Assembly: GCA_965247535.1 (NCBI GenBank) | Contig: OZ252018.1 | Coordinates: 437,046-501,045, forward strand | From: Dehalococcoidia bacterium | GTDB lineage: Bacteria; Chloroflexota; Dehalococcoidia; Lucifugimonadales; UBA2985 | Direction: 5' to 3' | Length of the DNA: 64,000 nt | Shown here: positions 44,719-57,074 of the stretch, one piece after another | How the letters are laid out: the number at the start of each line of letters is the position of its first letter | Numbering within the stretch: position 1 is the stretch's first letter | Translations under genes and position numbers: made by a program | Notes under the pieces: generated by a model | The model's database searches: none | What the model saw: the letters and a program-made list of their open reading frames with translations, nothing else | What the model was told of the DNA's origin: nothing

Positions 44719-45840
44719 ATGGAAGATGTTTTCAGAGAAGCGCAGAATCTGCTCAGCGACGGTCGGCCCTTTGTGATTGCCACAGTTGTGGGCACCAAGG
44801 GTTCCACGCCCCAGAAGCCGGGAGCCAAGCTCCTGGTGAGGGAGGACGGCAGCGGCGTGGGCACCCTGGGCGGCGGCTGCGTCGAGGGTGACATCTGGTT
44901 TGCCGCCAAGATGCTCCTGAAGGAAGGCGGCGGCCCGACGATCACCGACTACGAGCTGAACGAGGACATCGCCGCGAGGGAGGGCCTGGTCTGCGGCGGC
45001 ACAATGTACTTCCTCATCGATCCGGTACTGGAGCCTGACGCCGTTCGGCCCACGGTCAGCAGCATCGTGGACGCATACGACGGCAGCCCCAGCGTGGGCG
45101 TGGCCACTCTGCTGAAGGCCGTGAAAGGCAAGGGGCAGGTTGGCGACAAGATCTGCATCGACGCGGACGGCGAGGCCAAGGGCTCACTGGGCGACCCCGC
45201 CCGCGATGCCGAGGCCGTCGAGGCCCTCCGCGAGCTCGTCGACTTCGGTCGTGTCAAGACGCTGAACACCCAGGACGGAGCGCAGGTCTTCCTGGAGGGG
45301 TTCACCAAGCCTGCCGCGGTCATAGTGGCCGGCGGCGGTCACATAGGCAAGTCCCTGGCTCCGCTAGTCAAGATGATGGGTCTCCGGCTCCACGTTGTGG
45401 ACGACCGGCCGGAGTTCGCCAACAAGGAGCGTTTCCCGGATGCGGACAGCGTTGTGGTGGCGGACTACGCCGAGGGTCTGACGCAGCTGGACATTCGCCC
45501 CAACAGCTCCGTTGTGGTGGCCACCCGCGGCCATCGCGAGGACGACCGTGCGCTGGAGGCAGCGGTCCGCAGCCCCGCGGGCTACGTTGGCCTGGTGGGC
45601 AGCCGTCGCAAGACCATCCTCATCTACGAGGAGCTGCTCAAGAACGGCATCCCGCTGGAGAGGCTGCAGGCCGTGCATGCGCCGGTTGGCCTGGACATCG
45701 GCGCCAAGACGCCGGAGGAGATTGCCATGAGCATCGTGGCGGAGATTGTGGCCTTCCGCGAGGGCCGCTCCGGCAAGGGCATGACCATGGAGAACCGCTA
45801 CCTGCAGCGCATAGCCCAGAAGGTTGGCGTACCGGCCTGA
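44719..45840 (+). CDS. XdhC/CoxI-family molybdoenzyme maturation protein
   Basis: N-terminal XdhC_CoxI-like segment (FVIATVVGTKGSTPQKPGAKLLV) and a Rossmann-like C-terminal half (VIVAGGGHIG). Confidence 0.85.
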   Translation: MEDVFREAQNLLSDGRPFVIATVVGTKGSTPQKPGAKLLVREDGSGVGTLGGGCVEGDIWFAAKMLLKEGGGPTITDYELNEDIAAREGLVCGGTMYFLIDPVLEPDAVRPTVSSIVDAYDGSPSVGVATLLKAVKGKGQVGDKICIDADGEAKGSLGDPARDAEAVEALRELVDFGRVKTLNTQDGAQVFLEGFTKPAAVIVAGGGHIGKSLAPLVKMMGLRLHVVDDRPEFANKERFPDADSVVVADYAEGLTQLDIRPNSSVVVATRGHREDDRALEAAVRSPAGYVGLVGSRRKTILIYEELLKNGIPLERLQAVHAPVGLDIGAKTPEEIAMSIVAEIVAFREGRSGKGMTMENRYLQRIAQKVGVPA

Positions 45841-45850
45841 TCCGTCGTCA

Positions 45851-46456
45851 ATGAGCGGAATCTCGGCCATCCTGCTGGCCGCGGGCGAGTCCACCCGCAT
45901 GGGCCGCCTCAAGGCCCTTCTGCCCTGGCAGGGCGCGACCCTGATCGAGTACCAGGTTGCCTCGCTGCTCGACGCCGGCGTATCGCAGCTTGTGGTGGTC
46001 GTCGGCCATAGAGGCGACGAGGTAGGCGCTCCCATTGCAGGCCGCGCGGGCGTCACCACGGTCGAGAACCCGGACTACCGGCAGGGCAAGACCACGTCCA
46101 TCAAGGCCGGCCTTCGCGCCATATCGCCGGACGCCGCGGCTATCCTGGTGCTCGCCGTCGACCAGCCGCGACCTCCCGACATCCTGGGGACCGTCATCGA
46201 GGCACACCTGTCGCGCTCGCCGCTGATCACCAGCCCCGTCTACGACGGACGCGGCGGCCATCCGATGATCTTCGATGTGGAGCTGCTGCCTGAGCTGGCC
46301 GCCATCACGGAGGAGAGTGAGGGCCTGCGTGAGGTCACGCGCCGGCACGCCTCCGACATCTACAAGCTGGAGCTTGACGACCCGGTCGTGCGGGTGGACG
46401 TCAACACGCCGGAGGACCTGCAGGCGGCCCAGCCTCTGTTCGAGGGCCGCGGCTAG
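45851..46456 (+). CDS. Molybdenum cofactor nucleotidyltransferase (MocA/MobA-like)
   Basis: ATG 45851. ISAILLAAGESTRMGRLKALLPW is the NTP_transf_3 motif. It lies directly after the XdhC-family gene. Confidence 0.8.
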   Translation: MSGISAILLAAGESTRMGRLKALLPWQGATLIEYQVASLLDAGVSQLVVVVGHRGDEVGAPIAGRAGVTTVENPDYRQGKTTSIKAGLRAISPDAAAILVLAVDQPRPPDILGTVIEAHLSRSPLITSPVYDGRGGHPMIFDVELLPELAAITEESEGLREVTRRHASDIYKLELDDPVVRVDVNTPEDLQAAQPLFEGRG

Positions 46457-47646
46457 ATCGCGCCGGCCTCTCGCAGGGCGGCGAGCTCCTCGTCGCTCAT
46501 ACCAGCCAGCTCCCTGAGCACCTGCTCGGTGTGCTCGCCCATGTCCGGGGCAGGCCGCTCGGCGCCTCCGGGCGTTCGGGACATCCTCAGCGGCGTATTC
46601 GTCATGCGGACGCTGCCCAGGCGGGGGTGCGGAACGTCCGCTATCATCCCGCGGTGCAGCACCTGTGGGTCGTGCGCCACCTGGTCGATGGTGTTGATTG
46701 GGCCGCAGGGAATGCCCATCGCCTCCATCTCCTCCAGCCATTCCGCGGTGGTCTTGACCATGAGGGCCTCAGCGATGATGGGCTCCAGCACGTCCCACCG
46801 CCGGCTCCGCACCCAGCCGTCCTCGAACCGCGGGTCGTCGATCAGCTCGATGCGGTCGATTGCGGAGCAGAACAGCGGCCACATGTCCTGCCGGCCGTCG
46901 GCAAGGGCGATGGTCATGTAGCCGTCGGCGGTGCGGAACGCCTGGAAGGGCGCGGTGACGGGATGCCGCGTGCCCAGGGGCTGCGGCACCTCGCCGGTGG
47001 CGAAGTATCGGCCGAACGCGTTCTCCAGGATTGCCACCTGGCAGTCGAGCATGGCAATGTCGACCATCTGGCCTAGCCCGCTTCGCTCGCGCTCCTGAAG
47101 CGCCGCGAGTATGCCAATCACGCTGTAGAGGCCGGCGGTGATGTCGCCCTGGGAGACACCGGGCCGGATGGGCGGCCCGCCCGGCTCGCCGGTGATGCTC
47201 ATGACCCCGCCCATGCCCTGGACGACGACGTCGAGCGCGCGCTTGGTGGCGTAGGGGCCGTCCTGCCCGAAGCCGGAAATTGCGGCGTAGACGATGCGCG
47301 GGTTTCGCTGCGACAGAACGGAATAGTCGAGGCCCAGCCTGCGCATGGCGCCGGGCGTGAGGTTCTCCAGGACGACGTCGGCGTTATCGACGAGCCTCAG
47401 GAACGCGTCGCGGCCCTCGGGCATGGACAGGTCCAGCGTGACGCCCAGCTTGCCGCGGTTGATGCTCATGAAGTAGGTGCTCTCGCCGTCGATGAAGGGG
47501 CCGCTGGCGCGTGCGCGGTCGCCGACGCCGGGTTGCTCGATCTTGACGACGCGTGCGCCGAGGTCGGCGAGGGTGGCCGCCGCGAACGGGCCGGCGAGGA
47601 CGTGCGTGACGTCCAGCACTACGATGCCGCTGAGTGGGCCTGGCAT
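46453..47646 (-). CDS. Family III CoA-transferase (CaiB/BaiF)
   Basis: 397 aa. The N-terminus GIVVLDVTHVLAGPFAAATLADLGARVVKIE is typical of the family. Confidence 0.9.
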   Translation of the reverse strand: MPGPLSGIVVLDVTHVLAGPFAAATLADLGARVVKIEQPGVGDRARASGPFIDGESTYFMSINRGKLGVTLDLSMPEGRDAFLRLVDNADVVLENLTPGAMRRLGLDYSVLSQRNPRIVYAAISGFGQDGPYATKRALDVVVQGMGGVMSITGEPGGPPIRPGVSQGDITAGLYSVIGILAALQERERSGLGQMVDIAMLDCQVAILENAFGRYFATGEVPQPLGTRHPVTAPFQAFRTADGYMTIALADGRQDMWPLFCSAIDRIELIDDPRFEDGWVRSRRWDVLEPIIAEALMVKTTAEWLEEMEAMGIPCGPINTIDQVAHDPQVLHRGMIADVPHPRLGSVRMTNTPLRMSRTPGGAERPAPDMGEHTEQVLRELAGMSDEELAALREAGAI

Positions 47647-47741
47647 GGCTCCGCACCTCCGCGATGGCTAGGTGCTGAGGATATTACCACCAACCGGCTC
47701 GCATCGGTAGCCGGAGGCGCGGGGGAGACGGGCGGCCGCGG

Positions 47742-48824
47742 TCAGCAGAACGGCAGCCCGAGCCGGTCGATGTCATTGGAGGACACTCGTAGAAGCCCCC
47801 TGGGGACGCACCCGGTCAGTGGGTTATCGGAGAGGTATAGGCCTCTAAGGTTGGAGAGGGTCGCAAGCTCCTGAGGAAACTCACCGCTCAACTGATTGTA
47901 ACCGAGGTACAACCCTTCGAGACTGGCTAGCTTGCCCAACGCGGGCGGAATCTCGCCACTCAGCTCGTTGCCTTCGAGGTTGAGCCCCAGCAAATCAGTC
48001 AAGTTGCCCAGCTCCGGCGGAATCTCACCGCTAAACTCGTTCCTATTGAGGTACAGCTTCTTCAGATTAGCGAGGCTGCCCAGGTACGCCGGAATCTCGC
48101 CGCTCAGCTGGTTGAAGGAGAGATTCAAGCTTTGCAGGCCGATCAGGCTGCTCAACTCCGGCGGTATTGTCCCGCTCAACTCGTTGCTCGCAAGAGACAG
48201 CCGCTCAAGGCTGGTCAGGCTCCCCAGCTCTGCCGGCAGCTCCCCGCCCAGTTCGTTGAAGTCCAAGCGTAGCCAATGGAGGCTGGCCAGCCCGCCGAGT
48301 TCAGGGGGTATGTCACCGCTCAACCGGTTAGACGTCAGCCAAAGCGTTCGGAGGCTGGTGAAGTTGCCCAACTGCGGCGGTATCTCTCCGCTCAGCTGAT
48401 TGTCACCGAGGTAAAGCGCCCGCAGGCCGGTGAGGCTTCCGAGCTCAGGAGGAATCTCACCAGTCAACTGATTGCTGAAGAGCGACAGCGCTACAACGCG
48501 GCCGCTTTCGTCCGTGGCCACGCCGTGCCATTCGTCTAAGGGGGCGTCACTCAGCCAGTTGGTGCTGTCAACCCAATTGGCGCCGTCCGTGGAGTTGTAT
48601 AGAGCCAGTAGCGCGGCTCGGTCCGCATCCGTCGGCAACGTAGGCTCGGGTGTCAGAGTAGACGCCGGCACATGAGTCCGCGTTGGTGGAGGCGTAGCGG
48701 TGGGTGCAGCTGTCGCGGTGGGCGAGGGCGACGGTGTTGGAGTCGGGTCCTCGTCGCAGGACGCGAGTAGAAGCGCTGCAGCAGTAGCTATGACGATGGC
48801 AATGAGTCCGGCTGCCTTACGCAT
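47742..48824 (-). CDS. Lipoprotein with plant-type leucine-rich repeats (one LRR block, ~10 repeats)
   Basis: Lipobox LLLASC, TP-rich linker, N-cap ADRAALLALYNSTDGANW..W.GV, 24-residue repeats LxxLxxLxLxxNxLSGxIPxELGx, C-cap NPLTGCVPRGL...LGLPFC. Confidence 0.9.
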   Translation of the reverse strand: MRKAAGLIAIVIATAAALLLASCDEDPTPTPSPSPTATAAPTATPPPTRTHVPASTLTPEPTLPTDADRAALLALYNSTDGANWVDSTNWLSDAPLDEWHGVATDESGRVVALSLFSNQLTGEIPPELGSLTGLRALYLGDNQLSGEIPPQLGNFTSLRTLWLTSNRLSGDIPPELGGLASLHWLRLDFNELGGELPAELGSLTSLERLSLASNELSGTIPPELSSLIGLQSLNLSFNQLSGEIPAYLGSLANLKKLYLNRNEFSGEIPPELGNLTDLLGLNLEGNELSGEIPPALGKLASLEGLYLGYNQLSGEFPQELATLSNLRGLYLSDNPLTGCVPRGLLRVSSNDIDRLGLPFC

Positions 48825-49041
48825 GTTGCGCGCTGCCTCCCGGGCTGCGTATGCCCCTCAACGCTCCTGGCACAGTGGAGCCTCTTGATCCTGTGAGAGT
48901 AGATTTCAAGTGCTCAGTCTCTCAATCTACAACTCAGCAGAATTTCACGCAAGGGAAGATCGTCACCCGTAGGGCTACCGGCGGGCTTAGCCTCTTGTGC
49001 TTACCAGTGACTTAGGTTCCTGACCATCATTGGTCGCCGTA

Positions 49042-51297
49042 CTAGCAGAACGGCAGGCCGAGGCGGTCGATGTCGTTGGAGGACACTCGCAGAAGCCCCC
49101 TGGGGATGCAGCCGGTCAGTGGGTTATCGGAGATGTACAGGCTTCTCAGGTTGGAGAGGGTTGCGAGCTCTTGGGGGATTTCCCCGCTCAACTGATTGTA
49201 ACCGAGGTACAACCATTCAAGGCCGGCTAGCTTGCCCAGCTCCCGTGGAATCTCGCCACTCAGCTCGTTGCCTTCCAGGTTCAGCCCCTGCAGATAAGTC
49301 AAGTTGCCCAGCTCCGGCGGAATCTCTCCGCTCAGCTCGTTCCCGGAAAGGTCAATCGAATGTAGGTAGGCCAGCCTGCCCAGTTCCGGCGGAATCTCGC
49401 CGCTGAGCTCGTTCTCGGAAAGGTCAATCGACCAGAGGTAGGCTAGCCTGCCTAGCGCAGTCGGCATTGCCCCGCTTAGCTGGTTTCCAGAGAGAAACAG
49501 CTGCCCTAGGCTGGGAAGGTTGCCCAACTCTGGCGGTATCTCTCCGCTCAACTCGTTGCTGTGGAGATACAGCCTCCGCAAGTTTGGGAGTCCGCCCAAT
49601 GCCGCCGGCAGGCTGCCGCTCAACTCGTTGTAGGCGAGATTCAGCGTCTGCAGGTTGACGAGGCTGCCCAACTCCGAGGGTATCTCACCTGTCAACTCGT
49701 TGCTGCCGAGACTAAGCTTTTTCAGCTTGACGAGGTTGCCAAGCTCCGGCGGAAGCTCGCCCGTCAGCCCATTGCGGGAGAAGGCCAACTCCTCCAGGTT
49801 GGAGAGGTTTCCAATCCCCCGCGGCAATCTTCCACTAAGGTTTTTGTCGGAGAGGTCTAGCTTAACAACGCGGCCGCTGTCGTCCGTGGTGACACCGTGC
49901 CATTGTCCCAGAGGCGCGTCGCTGAGCCAGTTTGTGTTGTCGGTCCAGTTCGGGCCGTCCGTGGCGAAGTATAACGCCACCAGCGGCTGCCTGTCAGAGT
50001 GGCAGTAGGCCAAGCCAAGCTCATCAAAATCGTCGAAATAGATCCTCAGACCATTGGGTATGCACCCGGTTAGCCGGTTGTCGGAGAGGTACAGATCCTC
50101 TAACCTGGAGAGTCTACCCAGTTCCGGAGGTATATTTCCGCGCAGCTGGTTTTGGCGGAGGTTCAGTTCCCTCAAATTGGACAAATCTCCCAGCGAAAGT
50201 GGAATCTCACCGCCCAGCTGGTTGTCTGGGAGGTTCAAGGACTCCAGCATTGAAATGTTCCCCAGTTCCGGTGGGATGTCACCGCTCAGGTAATTGTCTC
50301 CGAGGTCCAACTGCCTGAGGTTGGCGAGTCTTCCCAGCTCCGGCGGAATCTCGCCTGTCAATTGGTTGAGAGAGAGATCCAAGATTCTCAGTCTGGCGAG
50401 GTTGCCCAATTCCGGCGGTATCTCTCCGCTCAGCTGGTTCCCCAAGAGTTTCAGCCATAGAAGGTTGGACAGACTGCCGAGCTCCGGCGGTATAGGTCCG
50501 CTCAACTCGTTCCCAAAGAGGTTCAGCCATTGAAGGTTGGCTAGACCGCCAAACTCCGGTGGTATCTCTCCGCTCAACCGGTTGTCCGAGAGGTACAGGC
50601 CTTCGAGACTCGACAGGCTGCCGAGCTCCGCAGGAATTGCCCCGCCCAGGTCGTTCAGGCCGAGACTTAGCCTTCGCAGATTGACGAGGTTGCCCAGTTC
50701 CGGCGGTATCTCTCCGCTCAGCTGGTTGCTCCTGAGGTTAAGCGACTCCAGGTTGGAAAGGTTACCTAGTTCCGGCGGAATAGGTCCGCTCAACTCGTTC
50801 CCCAAGAGGTGCAGCGACTCCAGGTTGGAAAGGTTACCTAGTTCCGGCGGAATCTCTCCGCTCAACTGGTTGAACCACAGGCCTAGGCCTTTGAGGTTAG
50901 AGAGGCTGCCCAGCTCCCGGGGAATCTCTCCGCTCAGTCGGTGCTTGGAGAGGAGCAGATCTACAACGCGGCCGCTGTCGTCCGTGTTGACGCCGAACCA
51001 ATCTCCCAGGGGCGCTTCGGTGAGCCAGTTGGTGTCGTATCTCCAGTTGGGGCCATCCGTTGCGTTGTAGAGCGCGATCAGCGCGGCCCGGTCCGCGTCC
51101 GCCGGCACCGGAGTCCACGTGGGCGGAGGCGTTGGTGTGGCCTCAGGTGTACTCGTGGGAGCCGCAGTTGCAGTGGGTGCTGCTGTCGCGGTGGGCGAGG
51201 GCGACGGTGTTGGTGTCGGGTCCTCGGCGCAGGACGCGAGTAGAAGCGCTGCAGCAGCAGCTATGACGATGGCAATGAGTCCGGCTGCCTTACGCAT
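49042..51297 (-). CDS. Lipoprotein with plant-type leucine-rich repeats (two cap-LRR-cap blocks; 13+11 repeats by my count)
   Basis: Same architecture as 47742..48824. The first ~45 residues are nearly identical to that gene. Confidence 0.9.
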   Translation of the reverse strand: MRKAAGLIAIVIAAAAALLLASCAEDPTPTPSPSPTATAAPTATAAPTSTPEATPTPPPTWTPVPADADRAALIALYNATDGPNWRYDTNWLTEAPLGDWFGVNTDDSGRVVDLLLSKHRLSGEIPRELGSLSNLKGLGLWFNQLSGEIPPELGNLSNLESLHLLGNELSGPIPPELGNLSNLESLNLRSNQLSGEIPPELGNLVNLRRLSLGLNDLGGAIPAELGSLSSLEGLYLSDNRLSGEIPPEFGGLANLQWLNLFGNELSGPIPPELGSLSNLLWLKLLGNQLSGEIPPELGNLARLRILDLSLNQLTGEIPPELGRLANLRQLDLGDNYLSGDIPPELGNISMLESLNLPDNQLGGEIPLSLGDLSNLRELNLRQNQLRGNIPPELGRLSRLEDLYLSDNRLTGCIPNGLRIYFDDFDELGLAYCHSDRQPLVALYFATDGPNWTDNTNWLSDAPLGQWHGVTTDDSGRVVKLDLSDKNLSGRLPRGIGNLSNLEELAFSRNGLTGELPPELGNLVKLKKLSLGSNELTGEIPSELGSLVNLQTLNLAYNELSGSLPAALGGLPNLRRLYLHSNELSGEIPPELGNLPSLGQLFLSGNQLSGAMPTALGRLAYLWSIDLSENELSGEIPPELGRLAYLHSIDLSGNELSGEIPPELGNLTYLQGLNLEGNELSGEIPRELGKLAGLEWLYLGYNQLSGEIPQELATLSNLRSLYISDNPLTGCIPRGLLRVSSNDIDRLGLPFC

Positions 51298-51373
51298 GTG
51301 CTCGGTCTCTCCAATCTACACCTTGGCTTAAGTCGAAGCAAGTGAGAGTCGTCGTGCCGGAGGATGGCAATGC

Positions 51374-53920
51374 CTAGCAGAACGGCAGGCCGAGCCTCAC
51401 GAAGTCGTTGTTGGGCACGAACAGCAGCCCGTATGGGACACAGCCGGTGAGCCGGTTGTCGGAAAGGTATAGGCTTCTCAGGTTGGAGAGGCTGCCTAGC
51501 TCCGGCGGAATCTCTCCGGTCAGATTGTTGTCCGACAGAACAAGATATTCGAGGTTGGTGAGCTGGCCCAGCTCCGGCGGAATCTCGCCGCTCAACTCGT
51601 TACCATCTAGGCCCAGCCCCAACAGGTTGACCAAGTTGCCCATCTCCGGTGGTATCTTACCGCTCAACTCATTCCTTCGGAGAGTCAGCCTCTGCAGGTT
51701 GGCAAGGTTGCCTAATTCTGGAGGCAAGCTACCGCTCAACTGGTTGAAGGAGACATCCAGGCTTTGCAGGCTGGCGAGCCTACCCAGCTCCGCCGGTATT
51801 GTTCCACTCAACTCATTCCCGAAGAGAGACAGGTGTCGGAGGCTGGCCATATCGCCCAGCGCAGGCGGAATTGTCCCACTCAACTCGTTCCCGACTAAGT
51901 CCAGCCAATTGAGGTTGGTCAGCCTGCCCAATTCCTGCGGAATCTCTCCGCTCAACCGGTTGGACTGCAGCATAAGTGTTCGCAGGTCGGTCAGGTTGCC
52001 CAACTGCGGTGGTATCTCTCCGCTCAGATCGTTCCGGGAAAGGTCCAGCGATTGAAGATCGACTAGACTGCCCAGCTCAGGAGGAATCTCTCCGGTCAAT
52101 TGATTCTCGGAGAGGAACAGCAATTCAAGGTTGGGCAAGCTGCCCAGCTCCGGCGGTATAGCGCCGCTCAGCTGGTTGGAGAAGAAGTCCAGTTCCTGCA
52201 AACTGGCGAGGTTGCCCAGCACCGGCGGTAACTCCCCGCTCAGCTCGTTGAAGCCCAGGTACAGGGATCGCAGGCTGGTCAGGCTGCCGAGTTCCGGGGG
52301 TATCGCGCCGCTCAGCTGGTTGCCGCGGAAATTCAATGTCTGCAGGCTGGCGAGGCCGACAAGCTCCACCGGCAGACCGCCGCTCAACTCGTTGCTATCC
52401 AGATACAGCTCTTGCAGGTTTACGAGACCGCCAAGTTCGGGCGGTATCGCGCCGGTCAGCTCGTTCCTGCTGAGACTGAGCGTTTGCAGCTCGACGAGGC
52501 CGCCGAGCTCGGGGGGTATCTCGCCGGTCAACTCGTTTCTGCTGAGATCGAGCGTTTGCAGCTCGACGAGGCCGCCAAGCTCCGGCGGAAGCTCGCCCGT
52601 CAGCCCATTGCGTGAGAGGGCCAACTCCTCCAGGTTGGAGAGGGTTCCAATCCCCCGCGGCAATCTTCCACTAAGGTTATTGTCGGAGAGGACTAGCTTA
52701 ACAACGCGGCCGCTGTCGTCCGTGGTGACACCGTGCCATTGTCCCAGAGGCGCGTCGCTGAGCCAGTTTGTGTTGTCGGCCCAGTTGGTGCCGTTCGTGG
52801 CGCAGTACAGGGCCAACAGCGCGGTCCTGTCCGCTGACTCAGCGAGTGATTGAGCTAGAGCTGCGTCGCCGAAGGGCACCCCCACCTCGTCCAGGTCATT
52901 GTTGGGCACGTTGAACAGCACGTCGGGCACGCACCTCGAAAGCGAGTTGCCCGCAAGCCGGAGATGTCGCAGGCTGGGGAGGTCGCCCAGCTCCGGTGGT
53001 ATGTCGCCGCTCAACCGGTTGTTGCTGAGGGCAAGCTCCCGCAGGCTGCGGAGGCTGCCCAGCTCCGCTGGTATGTCTCCGCTCAGGTGGTTGTCGCTGA
53101 GGGCAAGCACCTGGAGGTCGTGGAGATCACCCAGGTCCGGCGGAATCCCCCCGTTCAACCGGTTGTGACGCAGGTTCAGCTGCCTCAGACTGGAAAGGCC
53201 TCCCAGCTCTGACGGTATGGCTCCGCTCAGGTCATTCTGTGAGAGGCTCAGCGCTTCCAGTGCGGTCAGCTTGCCGAGCTCCGGCGAGATACTGCCGCTC
53301 AGCCCGTTGTTGTAGAGGCTAAGCTCTGTCAGGTTAGAAAGCTCGGCAAGCTCCGGCGGAATCTTGCCGCTCAGATCGTTGCTGTTGAGGTGCAGGGTCT
53401 CCAGGCCGGAAAGGCCGCCCAGCTCGGGCGGGATCTCGCCCGTCAACTGGTTGGCTCCGAGGGAGAGCGTCTGCAGATCGGAAAGGGTGGCCAGCTCCTT
53501 CGGTATCTCACCGTGCAGCCCGTTGTTGCTGAGCTCAAGCCATCGCAGATTCGCAAGGCTTGCCAGCTCCGGCGGTATCTCTCCCCTCATGCCGTTGCCC
53601 CAGAGGTAGAGGCTCACCACACGGCCGTCGTCGCCCGTGTCGATGCCGTACCAGTCATCCAGGGGCGAGTCGCTCAGCCAGTTGTTGTTGCTCCCCCAGT
53701 GCGGGCCGCCCGTGGCGAAGTAGAGCCGAACCAGCACGGCCCTCTCGGCGTCCGAATCCGAGGGTGTTGGGGTGGGAGTCGGCGTGCGCTCTGATGTGGG
53801 AGTCGGCGTGTGCGCGGGAGTGGCCGTTGGGGTAGGGGTCGGCGCAACAGCGCAGGCCGCGAGTAGGAGCGCGGCCACCACGGCCAGTGTCAGGGTCACG
53901 TGTCTCGTCGGGTTTGGCAT
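51374..53920 (-). CDS. Lipoprotein with plant-type leucine-rich repeats (two blocks; 10+18 repeats by my count)
   Basis: Lipobox LLLAAC, TP-rich linker, the same caps and the same 24-residue consensus. It ends in RLGLPFC. Confidence 0.9.
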   Translation of the reverse strand: MPNPTRHVTLTLAVVAALLLAACAVAPTPTPTATPAHTPTPTSERTPTPTPTPSDSDAERAVLVRLYFATGGPHWGSNNNWLSDSPLDDWYGIDTGDDGRVVSLYLWGNGMRGEIPPELASLANLRWLELSNNGLHGEIPKELATLSDLQTLSLGANQLTGEIPPELGGLSGLETLHLNSNDLSGKIPPELAELSNLTELSLYNNGLSGSISPELGKLTALEALSLSQNDLSGAIPSELGGLSSLRQLNLRHNRLNGGIPPDLGDLHDLQVLALSDNHLSGDIPAELGSLRSLRELALSNNRLSGDIPPELGDLPSLRHLRLAGNSLSRCVPDVLFNVPNNDLDEVGVPFGDAALAQSLAESADRTALLALYCATNGTNWADNTNWLSDAPLGQWHGVTTDDSGRVVKLVLSDNNLSGRLPRGIGTLSNLEELALSRNGLTGELPPELGGLVELQTLDLSRNELTGEIPPELGGLVELQTLSLSRNELTGAIPPELGGLVNLQELYLDSNELSGGLPVELVGLASLQTLNFRGNQLSGAIPPELGSLTSLRSLYLGFNELSGELPPVLGNLASLQELDFFSNQLSGAIPPELGSLPNLELLFLSENQLTGEIPPELGSLVDLQSLDLSRNDLSGEIPPQLGNLTDLRTLMLQSNRLSGEIPQELGRLTNLNWLDLVGNELSGTIPPALGDMASLRHLSLFGNELSGTIPAELGRLASLQSLDVSFNQLSGSLPPELGNLANLQRLTLRRNELSGKIPPEMGNLVNLLGLGLDGNELSGEIPPELGQLTNLEYLVLSDNNLTGEIPPELGSLSNLRSLYLSDNRLTGCVPYGLLFVPNNDFVRLGLPFC

Positions 53921-54210
53921 GAGGCGTACAGCCTCCTGGCGCTGGTTTCACCTGCCCTGCCACGACGTGCACGCGTAGGCCTTCGGGCCGGTGAAGACGG
54001 ACTGGGATGCGGTCGGTCTCCGTAATCTACAACTCCGCGTGCCTCGGCGCAAGCGAGACTCGCCACGCGGAGGGTGGGCGTGGGCTCGACATTTCGCCCG
54101 TTCCTGATAGTCGCCCGGCCGTGAGCGCGTGGCCGGTTCAGGTTGTGCTCTTTGCTGAGCGTGCCATATAATGTAGGTTGGTAAATTCCACGTTTGGACA
54201 GATTAGCAGC

Positions 54211-55335
54211 ATGGCCAATCAGAAAGATTACTATCAGGTTCTCGGCGTTCCTCGCAGCGCGTCCCAGGAGGACATCAGGACCAAGTTCAGGCGCTTGGCC
54301 CTGGAGTACCACCCTGACAGGAACAGGGATCCGAGCGCGCAGGAGCGTTTCAAGGAGATAAACGCCGCCTACCAGGTACTCAGCGACCCGCAGAAGAGGG
54401 CGCAGTACGACCGATTCGGGAACGTGGGCGCCGGACGGGGCAGCGGCTTTGAGGGATTCGAGAACTTCGGTGGGTTTGGCGACATATTCGACGCATTCTT
54501 CGGCGGGTTCGGCGCTCGCACCCGGCGCGCTCCGCAGCGCGGCCGCGACATCCAGGCTGGCACCACCATATCGTTCGAGGAGGCGGTGTTCGGCGTGGAC
54601 CGCGAGATCGACTTGGAACGCGTCGAGCCCTGCCGCGAGTGCAAGGGCAGCGGCGCAGAGCCCGGCAGCGCGCCCGTCCAGTGCAGCCAGTGCAACGGCT
54701 CCGGCCAGGTGCGCAGGGTGCAGCGCAGCATATTCGGCCAGTTCACGCAGGTTGGCGCCTGCACCCAGTGCAATGGCGAGGGCAGCGTGATCACCAGCCC
54801 GTGCTCCAACTGCCGCGGCTCCGCCCGCGAACGAAGGAGACGGCGCATCCAGGTCGACATCCCGCCGGGCGTGGAGGACGGGATGCAGGTCCGCCTGAGC
54901 CGCGAGGGCGACGCAGGGTCCAACGGCGGTACGCCGGGCGACCTGTACATAAACCTGGTGGTGGAGCCCCACGGCTTCTTCTCTCGCAGGGATCACGACA
55001 TACTCCTCGAGCTGCCGATCAACTTCGCACAGGCGGCGCTGGGCTACGAGCTTGAAGTGCCCACACTCAACGGCCCGGAAACCCTGCGGATCCCCGGAGG
55101 CACGCAGTCCGGCACCGAGTTTCGCATCAAGGGCCGCGGAGTGCCGTACTCGGTCAAGGGCCGGCGGGGAGACCAGATGGTGGTGGTGAACGTGGTCACG
55201 CCCAGCAACCTCGACGACCGCCAGCGACGGCTCTTTGCAGAGCTCGGGGAATCCATGGGCAACGGCTCCCGCGAGGACAAGAGCTGGTTCGGCAGGTTCA
55301 AGGACTCCATCGGCAAGGACGGCAAGGGGTCGTGA
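54211..55335 (+). CDS. dnaJ: Molecular chaperone DnaJ
   Basis: J domain (DYYQVLGV...HPDRN), G/F region and four CxxCxG(S/E)G zinc motifs. Confidence 0.95.
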   Translation: MANQKDYYQVLGVPRSASQEDIRTKFRRLALEYHPDRNRDPSAQERFKEINAAYQVLSDPQKRAQYDRFGNVGAGRGSGFEGFENFGGFGDIFDAFFGGFGARTRRAPQRGRDIQAGTTISFEEAVFGVDREIDLERVEPCRECKGSGAEPGSAPVQCSQCNGSGQVRRVQRSIFGQFTQVGACTQCNGEGSVITSPCSNCRGSARERRRRRIQVDIPPGVEDGMQVRLSREGDAGSNGGTPGDLYINLVVEPHGFFSRRDHDILLELPINFAQAALGYELEVPTLNGPETLRIPGGTQSGTEFRIKGRGVPYSVKGRRGDQMVVVNVVTPSNLDDRQRRLFAELGESMGNGSREDKSWFGRFKDSIGKDGKGS

Positions 55336-55350
55336 CGCGGCGAATGGGCA

Positions 55351-56256
55351 ATGAAGTGGCTTGAGCTGAGCATCCGGGCTCCCCAGGAGTACGTCGAGCC
55401 GCTATCGGCGGTGTTCCAGCGTCACGGATACGGCGGCGTTGCCGTGGAGCTGGAGGGCGGCTACAACCCGGATGAGGGCGAGTCCGAATCCGACGAGGCA
55501 ACCGCCGTACTTCGCTCCTACCTTCCGCTCGACAGCACGACTGCATCAAGCCGCGAGCAGATCCGCGTGGCCGTCGCCCTCATCTCCCTGCTGTGTCCGC
55601 TGCCTCCGCTCGAGGAGCGGGTCATCGACGAGAACGAGTGGCTGGAATCGTGGAAGGACCACTTCACCCTGCTGCACATAGGACGCCTGGTCGTGCGGCC
55701 GTCTTGGATGGAGTACGAGGCCGCGGACGGCGAGGTGGTCATAGGCATGGACCCGGGCATGGCCTTTGGCACGGGACACCATCCGACGACCCGCATGTGC
55801 TTGGCCGAGCTGGACAAGCTGGTGAGGCCCGGCATGAGCGTTCTGGACGTCGGGACCGGCTCCGGGATACTTACGATAGCGGCGGCAAAGCTGGGCGCCG
55901 GCAGCGTCCGCGCCCTTGACGTCGACCCGGTGGCCGTCCGGGCGGCGCGAGCCAACGTGCGAGCCAACGGCTTGAGCCACCGGGTCAGGCTTGAGGAGCG
56001 CGCGCTTGCCGCGGACGCCGAGCCGCCGGGCGAGTTCGATCTCGTGGTTGCGAACCTTTACACCAACGTCATTCTCAAGCTTGCGCTGGCCCTCGTGGCG
56101 CACACGGCTGCAGGCGGCGCCCTTGTGGTCAGCGGCATCATGGCCGATCGCGCGGGCGAGGTGGAGCGCGCCCTCGGCGACGCGGGCTGCCCGGTCGAAC
56201 GCACCGAACGCGAGGGCGACTGGGCCGCGCTGGTAGCCCGCAAGAGCGGGGCCTAG
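55351..56256 (+). CDS. prmA: Ribosomal protein L11 methyltransferase
   Basis: MKWLELSI N-terminus, the SAM motif VLDVGTGSGILTIAAAKLGA, and position after dnaJ. Confidence 0.9.
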   Translation: MKWLELSIRAPQEYVEPLSAVFQRHGYGGVAVELEGGYNPDEGESESDEATAVLRSYLPLDSTTASSREQIRVAVALISLLCPLPPLEERVIDENEWLESWKDHFTLLHIGRLVVRPSWMEYEAADGEVVIGMDPGMAFGTGHHPTTRMCLAELDKLVRPGMSVLDVGTGSGILTIAAAKLGAGSVRALDVDPVAVRAARANVRANGLSHRVRLEERALAADAEPPGEFDLVVANLYTNVILKLALALVAHTAAGGALVVSGIMADRAGEVERALGDAGCPVERTEREGDWAALVARKSGA

Positions 56257-56258
56257 CC

Positions 56259-57074
56259 GTGCACCGGTTCTTCGTAGACCCCGGTTGCATTCGCGAGGGG
56301 CGCGCCATCGTGGAAGGCGCGGTCGCAAGGCAGGTCTCGCAGGTGCTCCGGATTCGCGCTGGAGAGAGCATCGCGCTGATGGACGGCTCGGGCCGGGGGT
56401 GGGTCGTGCTGCTCAGCAGCGTATCGCCGTCCAGGCTGGAGGGAGACGTTGTGCGCGAGTCGTTCCTGAGCGGCGAGCCGGGCGTGTCCGTCACTCTATT
56501 CCAGGGCATCCTCAAGGGCGAGAAGTTCGAGATGGTGCTACAGAAAGGGACGGAGCTGGGCATCTCCACATTCGTTCCGGTGGAGTGCCGCCGCAGCATA
56601 CCGAGAGCCGCCGGAGGCCGCGCCGACACCAGGTTCAGGCGGTGGCAGAGCATCGTGCGGGAGGCGGCCGAGCAGTCGGGCAGGACGCGCATCCCAGTCG
56701 TGGAGGCTCAGGTTTCGCTTGGCGATGCGCTGGGGTCGGCGCGGGGCGTGACGCTCATTGCCTGGGAGGGTGAGCGAGAGACCGGGCTCAGGGAGGCGCT
56801 GGCGGAGGGGCTCGAACGGGCCCGCGTTGAGGGACTAGGCCTGCTGGTTGGCCCGGAGGGTGGCTTCGATCCGGCTGAGGTGGAGCTGGCTATGGAGGCG
56901 GGCGCGGCGCCGGTCAGCCTCGGCAGGCGAACGCTGCGGAGCGAGACTGCCGGCCTTGCCATGACGGCCGCGGTGATGTACGAGATGGGCGAGCTCGGCA
57001 GTCCGAGCGGCGACGCCGGAGGCACGCGCGCGGGCCAGACCGTGCTCCGCGAACAGAGCGGCGTGCTGGACTGA
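56259..57074 (+). CDS. rsmE: 16S rRNA (uracil1498-N3)-methyltransferase
   Basis: MHRFFV N-terminus with a GTG start and a SPOUT C-terminal half (LLVGPEGGF...E). Conserved dnaJ-prmA-rsmE order. Confidence 0.85.
   Translation: MHRFFVDPGCIREGRAIVEGAVARQVSQVLRIRAGESIALMDGSGRGWVVLLSSVSPSRLEGDVVRESFLSGEPGVSVTLFQGILKGEKFEMVLQKGTELGISTFVPVECRRSIPRAAGGRADTRFRRWQSIVREAAEQSGRTRIPVVEAQVSLGDALGSARGVTLIAWEGERETGLREALAEGLERARVEGLGLLVGPEGGFDPAEVELAMEAGAAPVSLGRRTLRSETAGLAMTAAVMYEMGELGSPSGDAGGTRAGQTVLREQSGVLD

What the first reader, a model, noticed from the sequence alone, without database searches (positions are those of the whole stretch)
47742..53920. Three tandem paralogous lipoproteins made of plant-type 24-residue LRRs (about 62 repeats in 6 kb)
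All three genes share one architecture:
- Signal peptide with lipobox Cys, then a TP-rich linker.
- An N-cap (A.R.AL.ALY.AT.G..W....NWL.....L..W.GV......GRVV.L.L) resembling the plant LRRNT_2 cap.
- Repeats of LxxLxxLxLxxNxLSGxIPxELGx.
- A C-cap N.LTGC(I/V)P.GL....ND...LGLPFC, ending exactly at a Cys.

The second and third genes contain two complete cap-LRR-cap blocks each. By my count the repeats number about 10, 13+11 and 10+18.

The 24-residue ..NxLSGxIP.. class is characteristic of plant receptor ectodomains and is unusual in bacteria. The first ~45 codons of genes 1 and 2 are nearly identical at the DNA level, which implies recent duplication or gene conversion. The 72-nt periodicity makes the locus recombination-prone, so it could be a variable surface-recognition family.
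Basis: partly seen in the sequence, partly recalled or inferred. Interest (0 to 1): 0.6.

Follow-up and report, generated by a model that had tools for sequence, protein, structure and literature searches.

The report
Plant-type LRR surface lipoprotein array
Three neighbouring genes of an uncultured Dehalococcoidia bacterium encode lipid-anchored surface proteins built from 62 plant-style leucine-rich repeats; they are real and vary between close relatives, but they belong to a very large family of "eukaryote-like" proteins already noted in sponge-associated Chloroflexi.

Summary
There are three intact minus-strand ORFs of 360, 751 and 848 aa. Their 24-residue LRR units number 10, 13+11 and 10+18, 62 in all, in perfect register. 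Each has a lipobox Cys23, a Thr/Pro-rich linker, Cys-free N-caps and C-caps with a C-x20-C pair that ends the protein.

The repeats are of the plant-specific class by consensus, by sequence (best solved relatives GSO1 2.6e-178 and FLS2 1.2e-137) and by fold (all 50 top Foldseek hits are plant ectodomains). The N-cap does not score as Pfam LRRNT_2.

Gene conversion is shown. One g3 tract is 93% identical to paralog g2 but 76% identical to its ortholog in a sister genome. That sister genome lacks one whole module of g2 and one 24-aa unit of g3. Across the genus the dnaJ/CoA-transferase site holds 0, 1 or 3 LRR genes.

The class is not rare in this lineage. Matches occur in 8/8 genomes of the genus and in more than 5,000 homologous proteins. 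LRR "eukaryote-like proteins" were already reported for sponge SAR202 and Caldilineae, and this scan has met the same class in at least 7 other genomes.

The ligand and function are inferred, not shown. Verdict: a new member of a known kind, of modest interest.

The parts
47742..48824 (-). g1: 360-aa LRR lipoprotein. Signal peptide plus lipobox, aa 1-23 (48824-48756). TP-rich linker, aa 24-66. N-cap, aa 67-106. Ten 24-aa LRR units, aa 107-346 (48506-47787). C-terminal tail to Cys360. Cys339/Cys360 pair.
   Evidence: AF2 model: aa 62-360 have pLDDT >93 and aa 1-61 are disordered.
49042..51297 (-). g2: 751-aa two-module LRR lipoprotein. Module 1: N-cap plus 13 units, aa 108-419 (50976-50041), with Cys412/Cys432. 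Module 2: N-cap plus 11 units, aa 474-737 (49878-49087), with Cys730/Cys751.
   Evidence: The sister genome has only the module-2 repeat set behind a chimeric N-cap (396 aa).
51374..53920 (-). g3: 848-aa two-module LRR lipoprotein. Module 1: 10 units, aa 98-337 (53629-52910), with a degenerate C-cap (second Cys lost; extra Cys373 in the next N-cap). Module 2: 18 units, aa 403-834 (52714-51419), with Cys827/Cys848.
   Evidence: The sister ortholog is exactly 24 aa shorter.
48691..48824 (-). 5' conversion/duplication tract of g1 (nt 1-134). It is 94% identical to g2 nt 1-134 (window 51164-51297).
47742..48043 (-). 3' tract of g1 (last three units plus C-cap). It is about 90-92% identical to the 3' end of g2 (window 49042-49343).
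49714..49973 (-). g2 module-2 N-cap plus the first two units (nt 1325-1584). It is 93% identical to g3 nt 1112-1371 (window 52550-52809). The same g3 tract is only 76% identical to its sister-genome ortholog, which indicates gene conversion in this lineage.
52437..52585 (-). Two adjacent g3 units that are about 90% identical (LVELQTLDLSRNELTGEIPPELGG / LVELQTLSLSRNELTGAIPPELGG). This is the probable site of the one-unit difference from the sister genome.
48910..48933 (-). Conserved upstream element of g1, GTTGTAGATTGAGAGACTGAGCAC. It contains a -10-like TAGATT with a TTGCGT about 17 nt upstream, and lies about 85 nt before the ATG.
   Evidence: A pattern search finds the element only at this locus in the genome. 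The promoter reading is inference.
51298..51322 (-). Copy of the same element directly abutting the g2 start codon (GGTGTAGATTGGAGAGACCGAGCAC-ATG).
54008..54033 (-). Copy of the same element about 90 nt upstream of the g3 start codon (GTTGTAGATTACGGAGACCGACCGCA).

Best explanation
The three genes encode Sec-exported, lipid-anchored proteins.

Proposed maturation and display:
- After cleavage by LspA, the acylated Cys23 holds each protein on the outer face of the membrane.
- A disordered Thr/Pro-rich stalk of 34-44 residues projects one or two rigid LRR solenoids away from the cell.
- The repeats are of the plant-specific 24-residue class.
- Each solenoid is closed by a Cys-free helical N-cap and by a C-cap whose two conserved Cys (C-x20-C, the second being the last residue) probably form a disulfide.
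- The concave beta-face carries the most variable positions (6, 8, 10 and 11 of each unit) and is the likely ligand-binding surface.

Family and evolution:
- The genes are ordinary members of a very large family of 'eukaryote-like' LRR surface proteins. The family is expanded in particular Dehalococcoidia (SAR202-type) and Caldilineaceae clades, many of which are known from sponge microbiomes.
- The array sits in a strain-variable site between dnaJ and a CoA-transferase gene.
- It evolves by duplication of whole genes with their promoter, gain or loss of whole cap-to-cap modules, gain or loss of single 72-nt units, and short gene-conversion tracts between paralogs.

Shown versus inferred:
- Shown: gene integrity, architecture, repeat class, fold, lipobox plus Lgt/LspA in the genome, mosaicism, and presence/absence and size variation.
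- Inferred: actual lipidation, the disulfide, surface exposure, and a role in binding a host or partner ligand.
For: - Architecture and counts.
- Lipobox rule met by all three proteins. Lgt (181.9 bits) and LspA (120.4 bits) are present in the same genome.
- AF2 model of g1: pLDDT 87.9 overall and >93 for aa 62-360. The N-terminal 61 residues are disordered. There are two short strands per repeat.
- Foldseek: the top 50 PDB matches are all plant LRR ectodomains (MIK2, HSL1, ERL1/2, FLS2, PEPR1, GSO1, PGIP), E 1e-21 to 1e-16.
- Sequence: GSO1 2.6e-178 and FLS2 1.2e-137, against 2.5e-53 for the best bacterial structure, Leptospira LIC11098.
- Entropy is highest at unit positions 6, 8, 10 and 11 (3.1-3.5 bits), against 0.1-0.5 bits for scaffold positions.
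- C339 and C360 are at least 90% conserved in a 21-sequence alignment. In 106 of 134 complete family ORFs the last Cys lies within 0-2 residues of the C-terminus.
- Family size and spread: >5,293 proteins at E<=1e-20; 466+ loci, almost all in Dehalococcoidia or Caldilineaceae MAGs, including the Aplysina sponge bins MPMJ/MPML; genus 8/8 and relatives 27/61; phylum sample 18/200, concentrated in a few families.
- Variation: sister-genome genes are 360/396/824 aa, with flanking proteins 95-100% identical. The dnaJ/CoA-transferase gap is about 180 bp and empty in two genomes of the genus, holds IS remnants in one, one LRR gene in two, and three LRR genes in two.
- Conversion.
- dN/dS is 0.32-0.57, against 0-0.25 in the flanks.
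- Literature: LRR ELPs in sponge SAR202 and Caldilineae (PMC6306507); LRR repeats enriched in sponge MAGs compared with seawater MAGs (PMC8163846).
Against: - No ligand, expression data or localisation data exist.
- The habitat of this particular genome is not stated anywhere I could read. Sponge association is inferred from named relatives.
- The genome has no Ank_2 ankyrin genes, although ankyrins were reported in all six sponge Chloroflexi genomes of PMC6306507.
- Substitutions between the two orthologous arrays are not enriched on the concave face relative to other variable positions (43/240 vs 59/336, p=0.91), and whole-gene dN/dS is below 1. There is therefore no direct sign of ligand-driven positive selection.
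Confidence: 0.7

Rival explanations
1. The proteins serve a function unrelated to a host. They could be surface scaffolds that capture proteins, peptides or other macromolecules from the surroundings, mediate bacterium-bacterium adhesion, or act as phage receptors or decoys. Array variation would then be driven by phage or competitor pressure.
For: - The architecture (anchor, stalk, binding solenoid) is neutral as to ligand.
- The same capped LRR cassette is fused to Fn3-like, cadherin-like and other domains elsewhere in this genome.
- In two genomes of the genus the LRR gene lies next to a membrane-tethered trypsin-like protein.
- There are no ankyrin genes.
- Strain-level presence/absence is also typical of phage-exposed surface genes.
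Against: - The family is all-or-none by genus and concentrated in clades whose named members come from sponge metagenomes.
- Published comparisons find LRR repeats enriched in sponge MAGs over seawater MAGs (PMC8163846).
Confidence: 0.2
2. They are injected or secreted effectors that act inside eukaryotic cells, like Xanthomonas XopAC/XopL/XopAE or Salmonella SlrP.
For: The best NCBIfam hits are XopAC (75-232 bits), XopAE and XopL. Those effectors also carry plant-like LRRs.
Against: - All hits lie far below the curated cut-offs of 450-600 bits.
- There is no enzymatic or E3 domain. The proteins consist only of caps and LRRs.
- A classical lipoprotein signal peptide with Cys23 is present.
- PMC8163846 notes that few sponge-symbiont lineages encode secretion systems.
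Confidence: 0.04
3. The array is an assembly artefact: a collapse or expansion of a repetitive region.
For: The region has 72-nt periodicity. Reads could not be checked.
Against: - Units are only 59% identical on average. Only 3 of 1,891 unit pairs reach 90%, and the longest exact repeat in the 6.2 kb is 87 nt.
- All frames are intact and in perfect register.
- An independently assembled sister genome has the same three-gene layout in the same site.
- The genome is a single 1.98-Mb contig.
Confidence: 0.02
4. The genes were recently acquired from a plant or alga by horizontal transfer, which would explain the plant-type repeat.
For: - The closest solved structures and sequences are plant receptor ectodomains.
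- A protist protein (P0038, eukprot) carries the same Cys-free N-cap.
- GC is slightly lower (0.59-0.60) than in the flanks (0.65-0.68).
Against: - Identity to plant proteins is only about 35-40% and is dominated by the repeat consensus.
- The caps differ from plant LRRNT_2 and the plant C-cap.
- The family has thousands of bacterial members with bacterial lipoprotein signals, spread over several Chloroflexota families. Any transfer would therefore be ancient, and its direction is unresolved.
- The GC dip can follow from the Leu/Asn/Ser/Glu-rich composition.
Confidence: 0.04

Closest known systems
Eukaryote-like LRR proteins (ELPs/ELRs) of marine sponge symbionts, including SAR202 and Caldilineae Chloroflexi (Bayer et al. 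2018, PMC6306507; Robbins et al. 2021, PMC8163846; Slaby et al. 2017, PMC5649159)
   Same: - Same lineage (Dehalococcoidia/SAR202-type) and same Pfam LRR content.
- Multi-copy expansion and patchy, clade-specific distribution.
- Close homologues lie in the Aplysina bins MPMJ01/MPML01.
   Different: - Those papers count Pfam LRR hits only. They do not describe the plant-specific repeat class, the lipoprotein anchor with TP stalk, the Cys-free N-cap, the C-x20-C terminal cap or the cap-to-cap modularity.
- The host of this genome is not documented.
- This genome has no ankyrin genes.
Plant-specific (PS) class LRR ectodomains of receptor kinases, receptor-like proteins and PGIP (e.g. GSO1 6s6q, FLS2 4mn8, MIK2 8wee, HSL1 7odk, PGIP 8ikw)
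   Same: - 24-residue unit with consensus LxxLxxLxLxxNxLSGxIPxxLGx.
- Two strands per repeat in the model.
- Best sequence matches (E down to 2.6e-178) and best fold matches (TM up to 0.73, rmsd about 2 A).
   Different: - No transmembrane helix or kinase, and no island domain.
- Anchored at the N-terminus by a lipid instead of at the C-terminus by a helix.
- The N-cap lacks the LRRNT_2 Cys pair and does not score with PF08263.
- The C-cap has a C-x20-C pair at the very C-terminus.
- Several complete capped solenoids can be strung together in one chain.
Bacterial LRR surface lipoproteins and adhesins: Leptospira LIC proteins (4u08, 4u06, 4u09; NF047464 LIC_11051 family) and Listeria internalins
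   Same: Surface-displayed bacterial LRR solenoids used to bind host molecules. The Leptospira proteins are also lipoproteins. These are the best bacterial matches among solved structures.
   Different: - They match far more weakly than plant proteins (2.5e-53 vs 2.6e-178).
- Scores lie well below the NCBIfam cut-offs: 72-185 bits vs 1000 for the LIC_11051 family, and 61-128 bits vs 1600 for internalin A.
- From general knowledge: internalins have 22-residue units, an Ig-like inter-repeat domain and LPXTG/GW anchors. None of these is present here.
Xanthomonas type III effectors with plant-like LRRs (XopAC/AvrAC NF041381, XopAE NF041400, XopL NF041351)
   Same: Bacterial proteins with plant-like LRR units. 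They are the top NCBIfam hits.
   Different: Scores of 43-232 bits are below the cut-offs of 450-600. There is no Fic or E3 catalytic domain. The proteins carry a Sec/lipoprotein signal rather than a T3SS signal.

Membership tests
Plant-specific (PS) LRR class | 24-residue unit with consensus LxxLxxLxLxxNxL(S/T)GxIPxxLGx | tested here: met
   The 62 units are in strict 24-aa register. Conservation: L1 87%, L4 92%, L7 97%, L9 92%, N12 97%, L14 97%, S/T15 89%, G16 98%, I18 77%, P19 98%, L22 94%, G23 81%.
Plant-specific (PS) LRR class | Closest sequence and fold relatives are plant LRR ectodomains; a second short strand in each repeat | tested here: met
   phmmer against PDB: the top 41 hits are plant proteins, led by GSO1 at 2.6e-178. 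Foldseek: the top 50 are all plant. DSSP on the model shows two strands per unit.
Plant LRR receptor ectodomain (LRR-RK/RLP) as a protein family | LRRNT_2 N-terminal cap with a conserved Cys pair (Pfam PF08263) | tested here: not met
   No PF08263 hit in the whole proteins at E<=0.01 or in the isolated N-caps at E<=10. The only match is a sub-threshold LRR_10 (PF18805), 16-21 bits against a cut-off of 30. Four of five N-caps contain no Cys.
Plant LRR receptor ectodomain (LRR-RK/RLP) as a protein family | C-terminal transmembrane helix with or without a kinase domain | tested here: not met
   The proteins end at the C-cap Cys, and there is no kinase or other Pfam domain.
Bacterial lipoprotein (SPase II substrate) | Signal peptide with a lipobox ([LVI][ASTVI][GAS]C), Cys at residue 15-35, and K/R in the n-region | tested here: met
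   A PROSITE-type rule matches all three...LLLASC23...LLLASC23 and ...LLLAAC23, with R/K within the first 7 residues. No dedicated predictor (LipoP/SignalP) was available.
Bacterial lipoprotein (SPase II substrate) | Lgt and LspA encoded in the genome | tested here: met
   PF01790 LGT scores 181.9 bits at C1:1326441-1327175. PF01252 Peptidase_A8 scores 120.4 bits at C1:1459652-1460044.
Bacterial lipoprotein (SPase II substrate) | Actual N-terminal acylation and membrane or surface localisation | not testable with these tools
   Needs mass spectrometry, globomycin sensitivity or fractionation.
Eukaryote-like LRR proteins of sponge symbionts | LRR Pfam domains in a bacterial protein of a sponge-associated lineage | tested here: inconclusive
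   The LRR domains are met. Close homologues lie in Aplysina aerophoba bins MPMJ01/MPML01/MPNA01, and many lie in 'MAG: Dehalococcoidia bacterium' records. The source of this window's genome is not given to me.
Eukaryote-like LRR proteins of sponge symbionts | Enrichment relative to free-living relatives | tested here: inconclusive
   The distribution is all-or-none by genus. In the window's own family, two genera score 8/8 and 7/7 while eight other genera score 0/13. In the same order, 12 of 33 families have matches. Published enrichment: PMC8163846.
Internalins (class 1) and Leptospira LIC_11051 family | NCBIfam curated score cut-off | tested here: not met
   InlA 61-128 bits vs cut-off 1600. 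InlH 38-91 vs 1050. LIC_11051 72-185 vs 1000.
Xop LRR type III effectors (XopAC, XopAE, XopL) | NCBIfam curated score cut-off plus a catalytic domain | tested here: not met
   XopAC 75-232 bits vs 450. XopAE 74-220 vs 600. XopL 43-130 vs 500. No non-LRR domain is present.

The most novel reading that the evidence does not exclude
The array, and the many like it in this lineage, may be a recombination-driven repertoire of surface receptors. New binding specificities would be assembled by swapping capped modules, single units and short conversion tracts between paralogs. That would make it a bacterial counterpart of plant R-gene/RLP clusters, determining which host or partner a symbiont strain can colonise. 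The evidence shows the raw material: module and unit indels, conversion tracts, occupancy of the site by 0 to 3 genes, and raised dN/dS. It does not show selection on the binding face or any ligand.
Probability: 0.2. Interest if true: 0.55.

Novelty: new member of a known kind. Interest (0 to 1): 0.3.

Why it matters
Sponge-symbiont 'eukaryote-like' LRR proteins are widely cited but have been described almost only as Pfam counts. How they reach the host has been an open point, because PMC8163846 notes that few of these lineages encode secretion systems.

This locus gives a clean, fully resolved example that suggests an answer for this family. The proteins carry ordinary lipoprotein signals and stalks, so they are probably displayed on the symbiont surface rather than injected.

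It also documents how such arrays change between close relatives: whole capped modules, single units and conversion tracts. A 300-residue capped solenoid such as g1 is a tractable candidate for expression, structure determination and ligand fishing.

As a discovery it is incremental. The family is huge, and this scan has met it repeatedly.

Tried and rejected
I relied instead on unit divergence, the longest exact repeat and the independent sister assembly.
- First blastn between the genes: it returned nothing because my filter was too strict. Merged long HSPs hid the tracts, so I replaced it with a diagonal sliding-window scan.
- LRRNT_2 membership of the N-cap: rejected.
- Positive selection on the concave face between orthologs: tested and not found. 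Concave x positions against other x positions gave p=0.91. The apparent enrichment against all positions (p=0.0002) only reflects scaffold conservation.
- The upstream 24-nt element as a genome-wide regulatory motif: rejected. It occurs only at these genes, so it was probably copied along with the genes.
- The generic sigma-70 scan found no promoter in the intergenic regions and found fewer terminators than in shuffles.
- The look-up of encoding contigs for g1: nothing on record.
- Literature search for accession OZ244716, to learn the host: nothing found.
- Ankyrin genes as a symbiont hallmark: none in this genome.
- A repeat-based phylogeny against plant LRRs was not attempted, because repeat shuffling and consensus-driven similarity make it uninformative. 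A cap-based tree is proposed instead.

Full report
**1. Observation**

The window holds three consecutive minus-strand ORFs at 47742-48824 (g1, 360 aa), 49042-51297 (g2, 751 aa) and 51374-53920 (g3, 848 aa). A motif scan shows LRR units spaced by exactly 24 residues. The regex missed one g2 unit, which is in register.

TRF independently reports periods of 72, 144 and 288 nt. Pfam LRR_1, LRR_4, LRR_8 and LRR_14 score with E 1e-21 to 1e-101.

All three N-termini satisfy a PROSITE-type lipoprotein rule with the Cys at residue 23. A linker of 34-44 residues follows, 58-62% Thr+Pro.

The only cysteines are Cys23 and one pair per C-cap: 339/360, 412/432, 730/751 and 827/848. The second Cys of each terminal pair is the last residue of the protein. 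The internal cap of g3 has lost its second Cys, and an extra Cys373 sits in the following N-cap helix.

**2. Repeat class and fold**

The 62-unit consensus is LxxLxxLxLxxNxLSGEIPPELGx, with scaffold positions 77-98% conserved. This is the plant-specific (PS) LRR consensus.

By sequence, the 41 best solved structures are all plant receptor ectodomains or PGIP-type proteins: GSO1 2.6e-178, FLS2 1.2e-137, RGFR 1.7e-125 and PEPR1 3e-115. The best bacterial structure, Leptospira LIC11098, scores 2.5e-53.

An AlphaFold2 model of g1, built on a 21-sequence alignment, has pLDDT >93 for residues 62-360. The signal peptide and linker are disordered. The model shows a capping helix (64-78) and two short strands per repeat. 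Its 50 best Foldseek matches in the PDB are all plant LRR ectodomains, with TM up to 0.73 and rmsd about 2 A.

The caps are not the plant ones. No LRRNT_2 (PF08263) hit appears even at E<=10 on isolated N-caps. The only match is a sub-threshold LRR_10. The phmmer alignment to GSO1 does run into the W..W.GV part of the cap. The C-cap has a C-x20-C pair, unlike the closely spaced Cys pair I recall at the C-terminal end of plant ectodomains (general knowledge, not compared here).

A protist protein (P0038, eukprot) has the same Cys-free N-cap but no signal peptide. The cap type is therefore shared with microbial eukaryotes.

**3. Lipoprotein reading**

The genome encodes Lgt and LspA above the Pfam cut-offs, so the maturation pathway is available. 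At least a dozen other ORFs in the genome match only the signal peptide plus TP-linker part of g1. This suggests the 'lipobox + TP stalk' is a common export and display module here. Lipidation itself is inferred.

**4. Organism and family**

The window lies in a single-contig 1.98-Mb genome.

- A pattern scan of species-representative genomes found more than 466 encoding loci. The 75 loci kept come almost entirely from 'MAG: Dehalococcoidia bacterium' records. A few are Caldilineaceae and SAR202 MAGs, including MPMJ01, MPML01 and MPNA01.
- The MPMJ/MPML accessions occur in the Aplysina aerophoba sponge binning paper (PMC5649159).
- In those 75 loci I found 134 complete family ORFs. They carry 1-10 N-caps and reach 2,628 aa. 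In 106 of them the last Cys lies within 0-2 residues of the C-terminus. About half have a lipobox by a rough regex.
- The protein database returned 5,293 homologues at E<=1e-20 among only 8,000 scored candidates. Almost all are unnamed, 'hypothetical' or 'LRR protein'.
- The distribution is all-or-none by clade. The window's own genus scores 8/8 and a second genus of the family 7/7. Eight other genera of the family score 0/13. In the order, 12 of 33 other families have matches. In a phylum sample, 18 of 200 genomes at least 90% complete have matches, concentrated in a few families.
- This genome has six LRR-bearing ORFs, three of them in the window. Elsewhere the same capped cassette is fused to Fn3-like and cadherin-like domains.

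Bayer et al. 2018 already reported LRR 'eukaryote-like proteins' in sponge SAR202 and Caldilineae genomes (PMC6306507). Robbins et al. 2021 found LRR repeats enriched in sponge MAGs relative to seawater MAGs, and noted that few of these lineages encode secretion systems (PMC8163846).

Earlier notes of this scan describe the same class in at least seven other genomes. I treated those notes as leads only.

**5. Evolution of the locus**

Within the window, most of the DNA of the three genes is 59-70% identical, but there are discrete near-identical tracts:

- g1 nt 1-134 and g2 nt 1-134 are 94% identical.
- The last ~300 nt of g1 and g2 are about 90-92% identical.
- g2 nt 1325-1584 and g3 nt 1112-1371 are 93% identical.
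- Two adjacent g3 units are about 90% identical.

A sister genome (OZ244716.1) has flanking proteins 95-100% identical to those of the window. It carries the same three genes in the same site, but with 360, 396 and 824 aa:

- g2' has a single module. Its N-cap begins like module 1 of g2 and continues into the module-2 repeats, as expected from recombination between the two N-caps.
- g3' is exactly one 24-aa unit shorter.

Identity of g3 to g3' is patchy along the gene, from 66% to 100% in 30-codon windows. The tract that is 93% identical to paralog g2 is only 76% identical to the ortholog. That points to gene conversion after the two genomes split.

dN/dS is 0.32-0.57 for the LRR genes, against 0-0.25 for six flanking genes. 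The amino-acid differences are not concentrated on the concave-face positions relative to other variable positions (p=0.91).

Across the genus, the interval between dnaJ and the CoA-transferase gene varies:

| Genomes | Content of the interval |
|---|---|
| G007, G009 | About 180 bp, empty |
| G008 | IS-type transposase remnants |
| G004, G006 | One two-module LRR lipoprotein gene plus a zinc-ribbon/TM/trypsin-like gene |
| The window's genome and its sister | Three LRR genes |

**6. Assembly**

Collapse or expansion is nevertheless unlikely:

- Units average 59% nt identity.
- Only 3 of 1,891 unit pairs reach 90% identity.
- The longest exact repeat in the 6.2 kb is 87 nt.
- All frames are intact.
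- An independent assembly shows the same layout.

**7. Regulation (in passing)**

Each gene is preceded by a copy of a ~24-nt element, GT(T)GTAGATT..GAGAC.GA.C. It occurs nowhere else in the genome. It contains a -10-like TAGATT with TTGC(G/T)(T/C) 17 nt upstream.

In g2 the element abuts the start codon. In g1 and g3 it lies about 85-90 nt upstream, and GGGAGG/AGGAGG Shine-Dalgarno sequences follow it. The simple consensus scan did not call these sites. The promoter reading is inference.

**8. Mechanism and verdict**

The best-supported reading is a set of lipid-anchored, stalked, capped LRR solenoids displayed on the cell surface, which bind ligands through a variable concave face. They are members of the large eukaryote-like LRR family of (probably sponge-associated) Dehalococcoidia, sitting in a strain-variable site and diversifying by module and unit indels and by gene conversion.

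A host-directed ligand is plausible from the literature but is not shown here. The absence of ankyrin genes and the lack of binding-face-specific substitution are mild counter-evidence.

Its claim of rarity is not, and its own refutation condition, that the class is 'common and already described in this lineage', is largely met. I rate this a new member of a known kind, with interest 0.3.

Noticed in passing
window 48910-48933, 51298-51322, 54008-54033 (minus strand): A ~24-nt element (GTTGTAGATT..GAGAC.GA.C) precedes each of the three LRR genes at different distances from the start codon. It occurs nowhere else in the genome. It reads as TTGCnn-17-TAGATT, so it looks like a promoter. In g2 it abuts the ATG, which would make the mRNA nearly leaderless. 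This was also noted earlier in the scan (e1-2835276).
   Followed up: partly
L097 (G008:C1:2065500-2070000) 1649-2736; L098 and L099: The same dnaJ/CoA-transferase interval is empty (about 180 bp) in two genomes of the genus. In a third it holds two adjacent ORFs that look like a split IS-type transposase. The site is therefore an accessory-gene hotspot.
   Followed up: partly
L095 4734-6080 (-) and L096 3955-5280 (-): In two genomes of the genus, the single LRR gene at this site is followed by a conserved protein of about 445 aa. It has an N-terminal double zinc-ribbon, one TM helix, a TP-rich linker and a C-terminal trypsin-like (GDSGSP) domain. This protein is absent from the window.
   Followed up: no
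L009 344-3090 (G000:C1:1662541-1666227): Elsewhere in the same genome, a 555-aa protein combines the same N-cap with about 5 PS-LRR units, two repeated Cys-containing domains of about 100 aa, and a C-terminal domain. The gene just upstream encodes a 315-aa protein of RCC1-like 'HTCG(V/I)RxDGSVACWG' repeats.
   Followed up: no
L010 709-3147 (-) (G000:C1:27484-30918): An ORF of about 812 aa contains a three-unit LRR cassette with both caps, including the Cys pair. The cassette is embedded between a large unknown N-terminal domain and Fn3/cadherin-like C-terminal domains. The capped LRR cassette is evidently used as a portable module.
   Followed up: no
window 52802-52933 (g3 aa 330-373): The internal C-cap of g3 has lost the second Cys (VGVPFG instead of LGLPFC), while a unique Cys373 appears in the next N-cap helix (LYCATNG). 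The sister genome keeps the same arrangement. It may be an alternative inter-module disulfide.
   Followed up: no
P0038 (eukprot g20224.t1): A protist protein carries three copies of the same Cys-free N-cap plus PS-LRR blocks. The blocks are joined by coiled-coil-like linkers and there is no signal peptide. The cap type is therefore shared between marine bacteria and microbial eukaryotes.
   Followed up: no
window 44719-57074 vs L094: Synonymous divergence between the two sister genomes is very uneven among neighbouring housekeeping genes: xdhC dS 0.011, dnaJ 0.10 and rsmE 0.19. This suggests mosaic homologous recombination along the chromosome.
   Followed up: no
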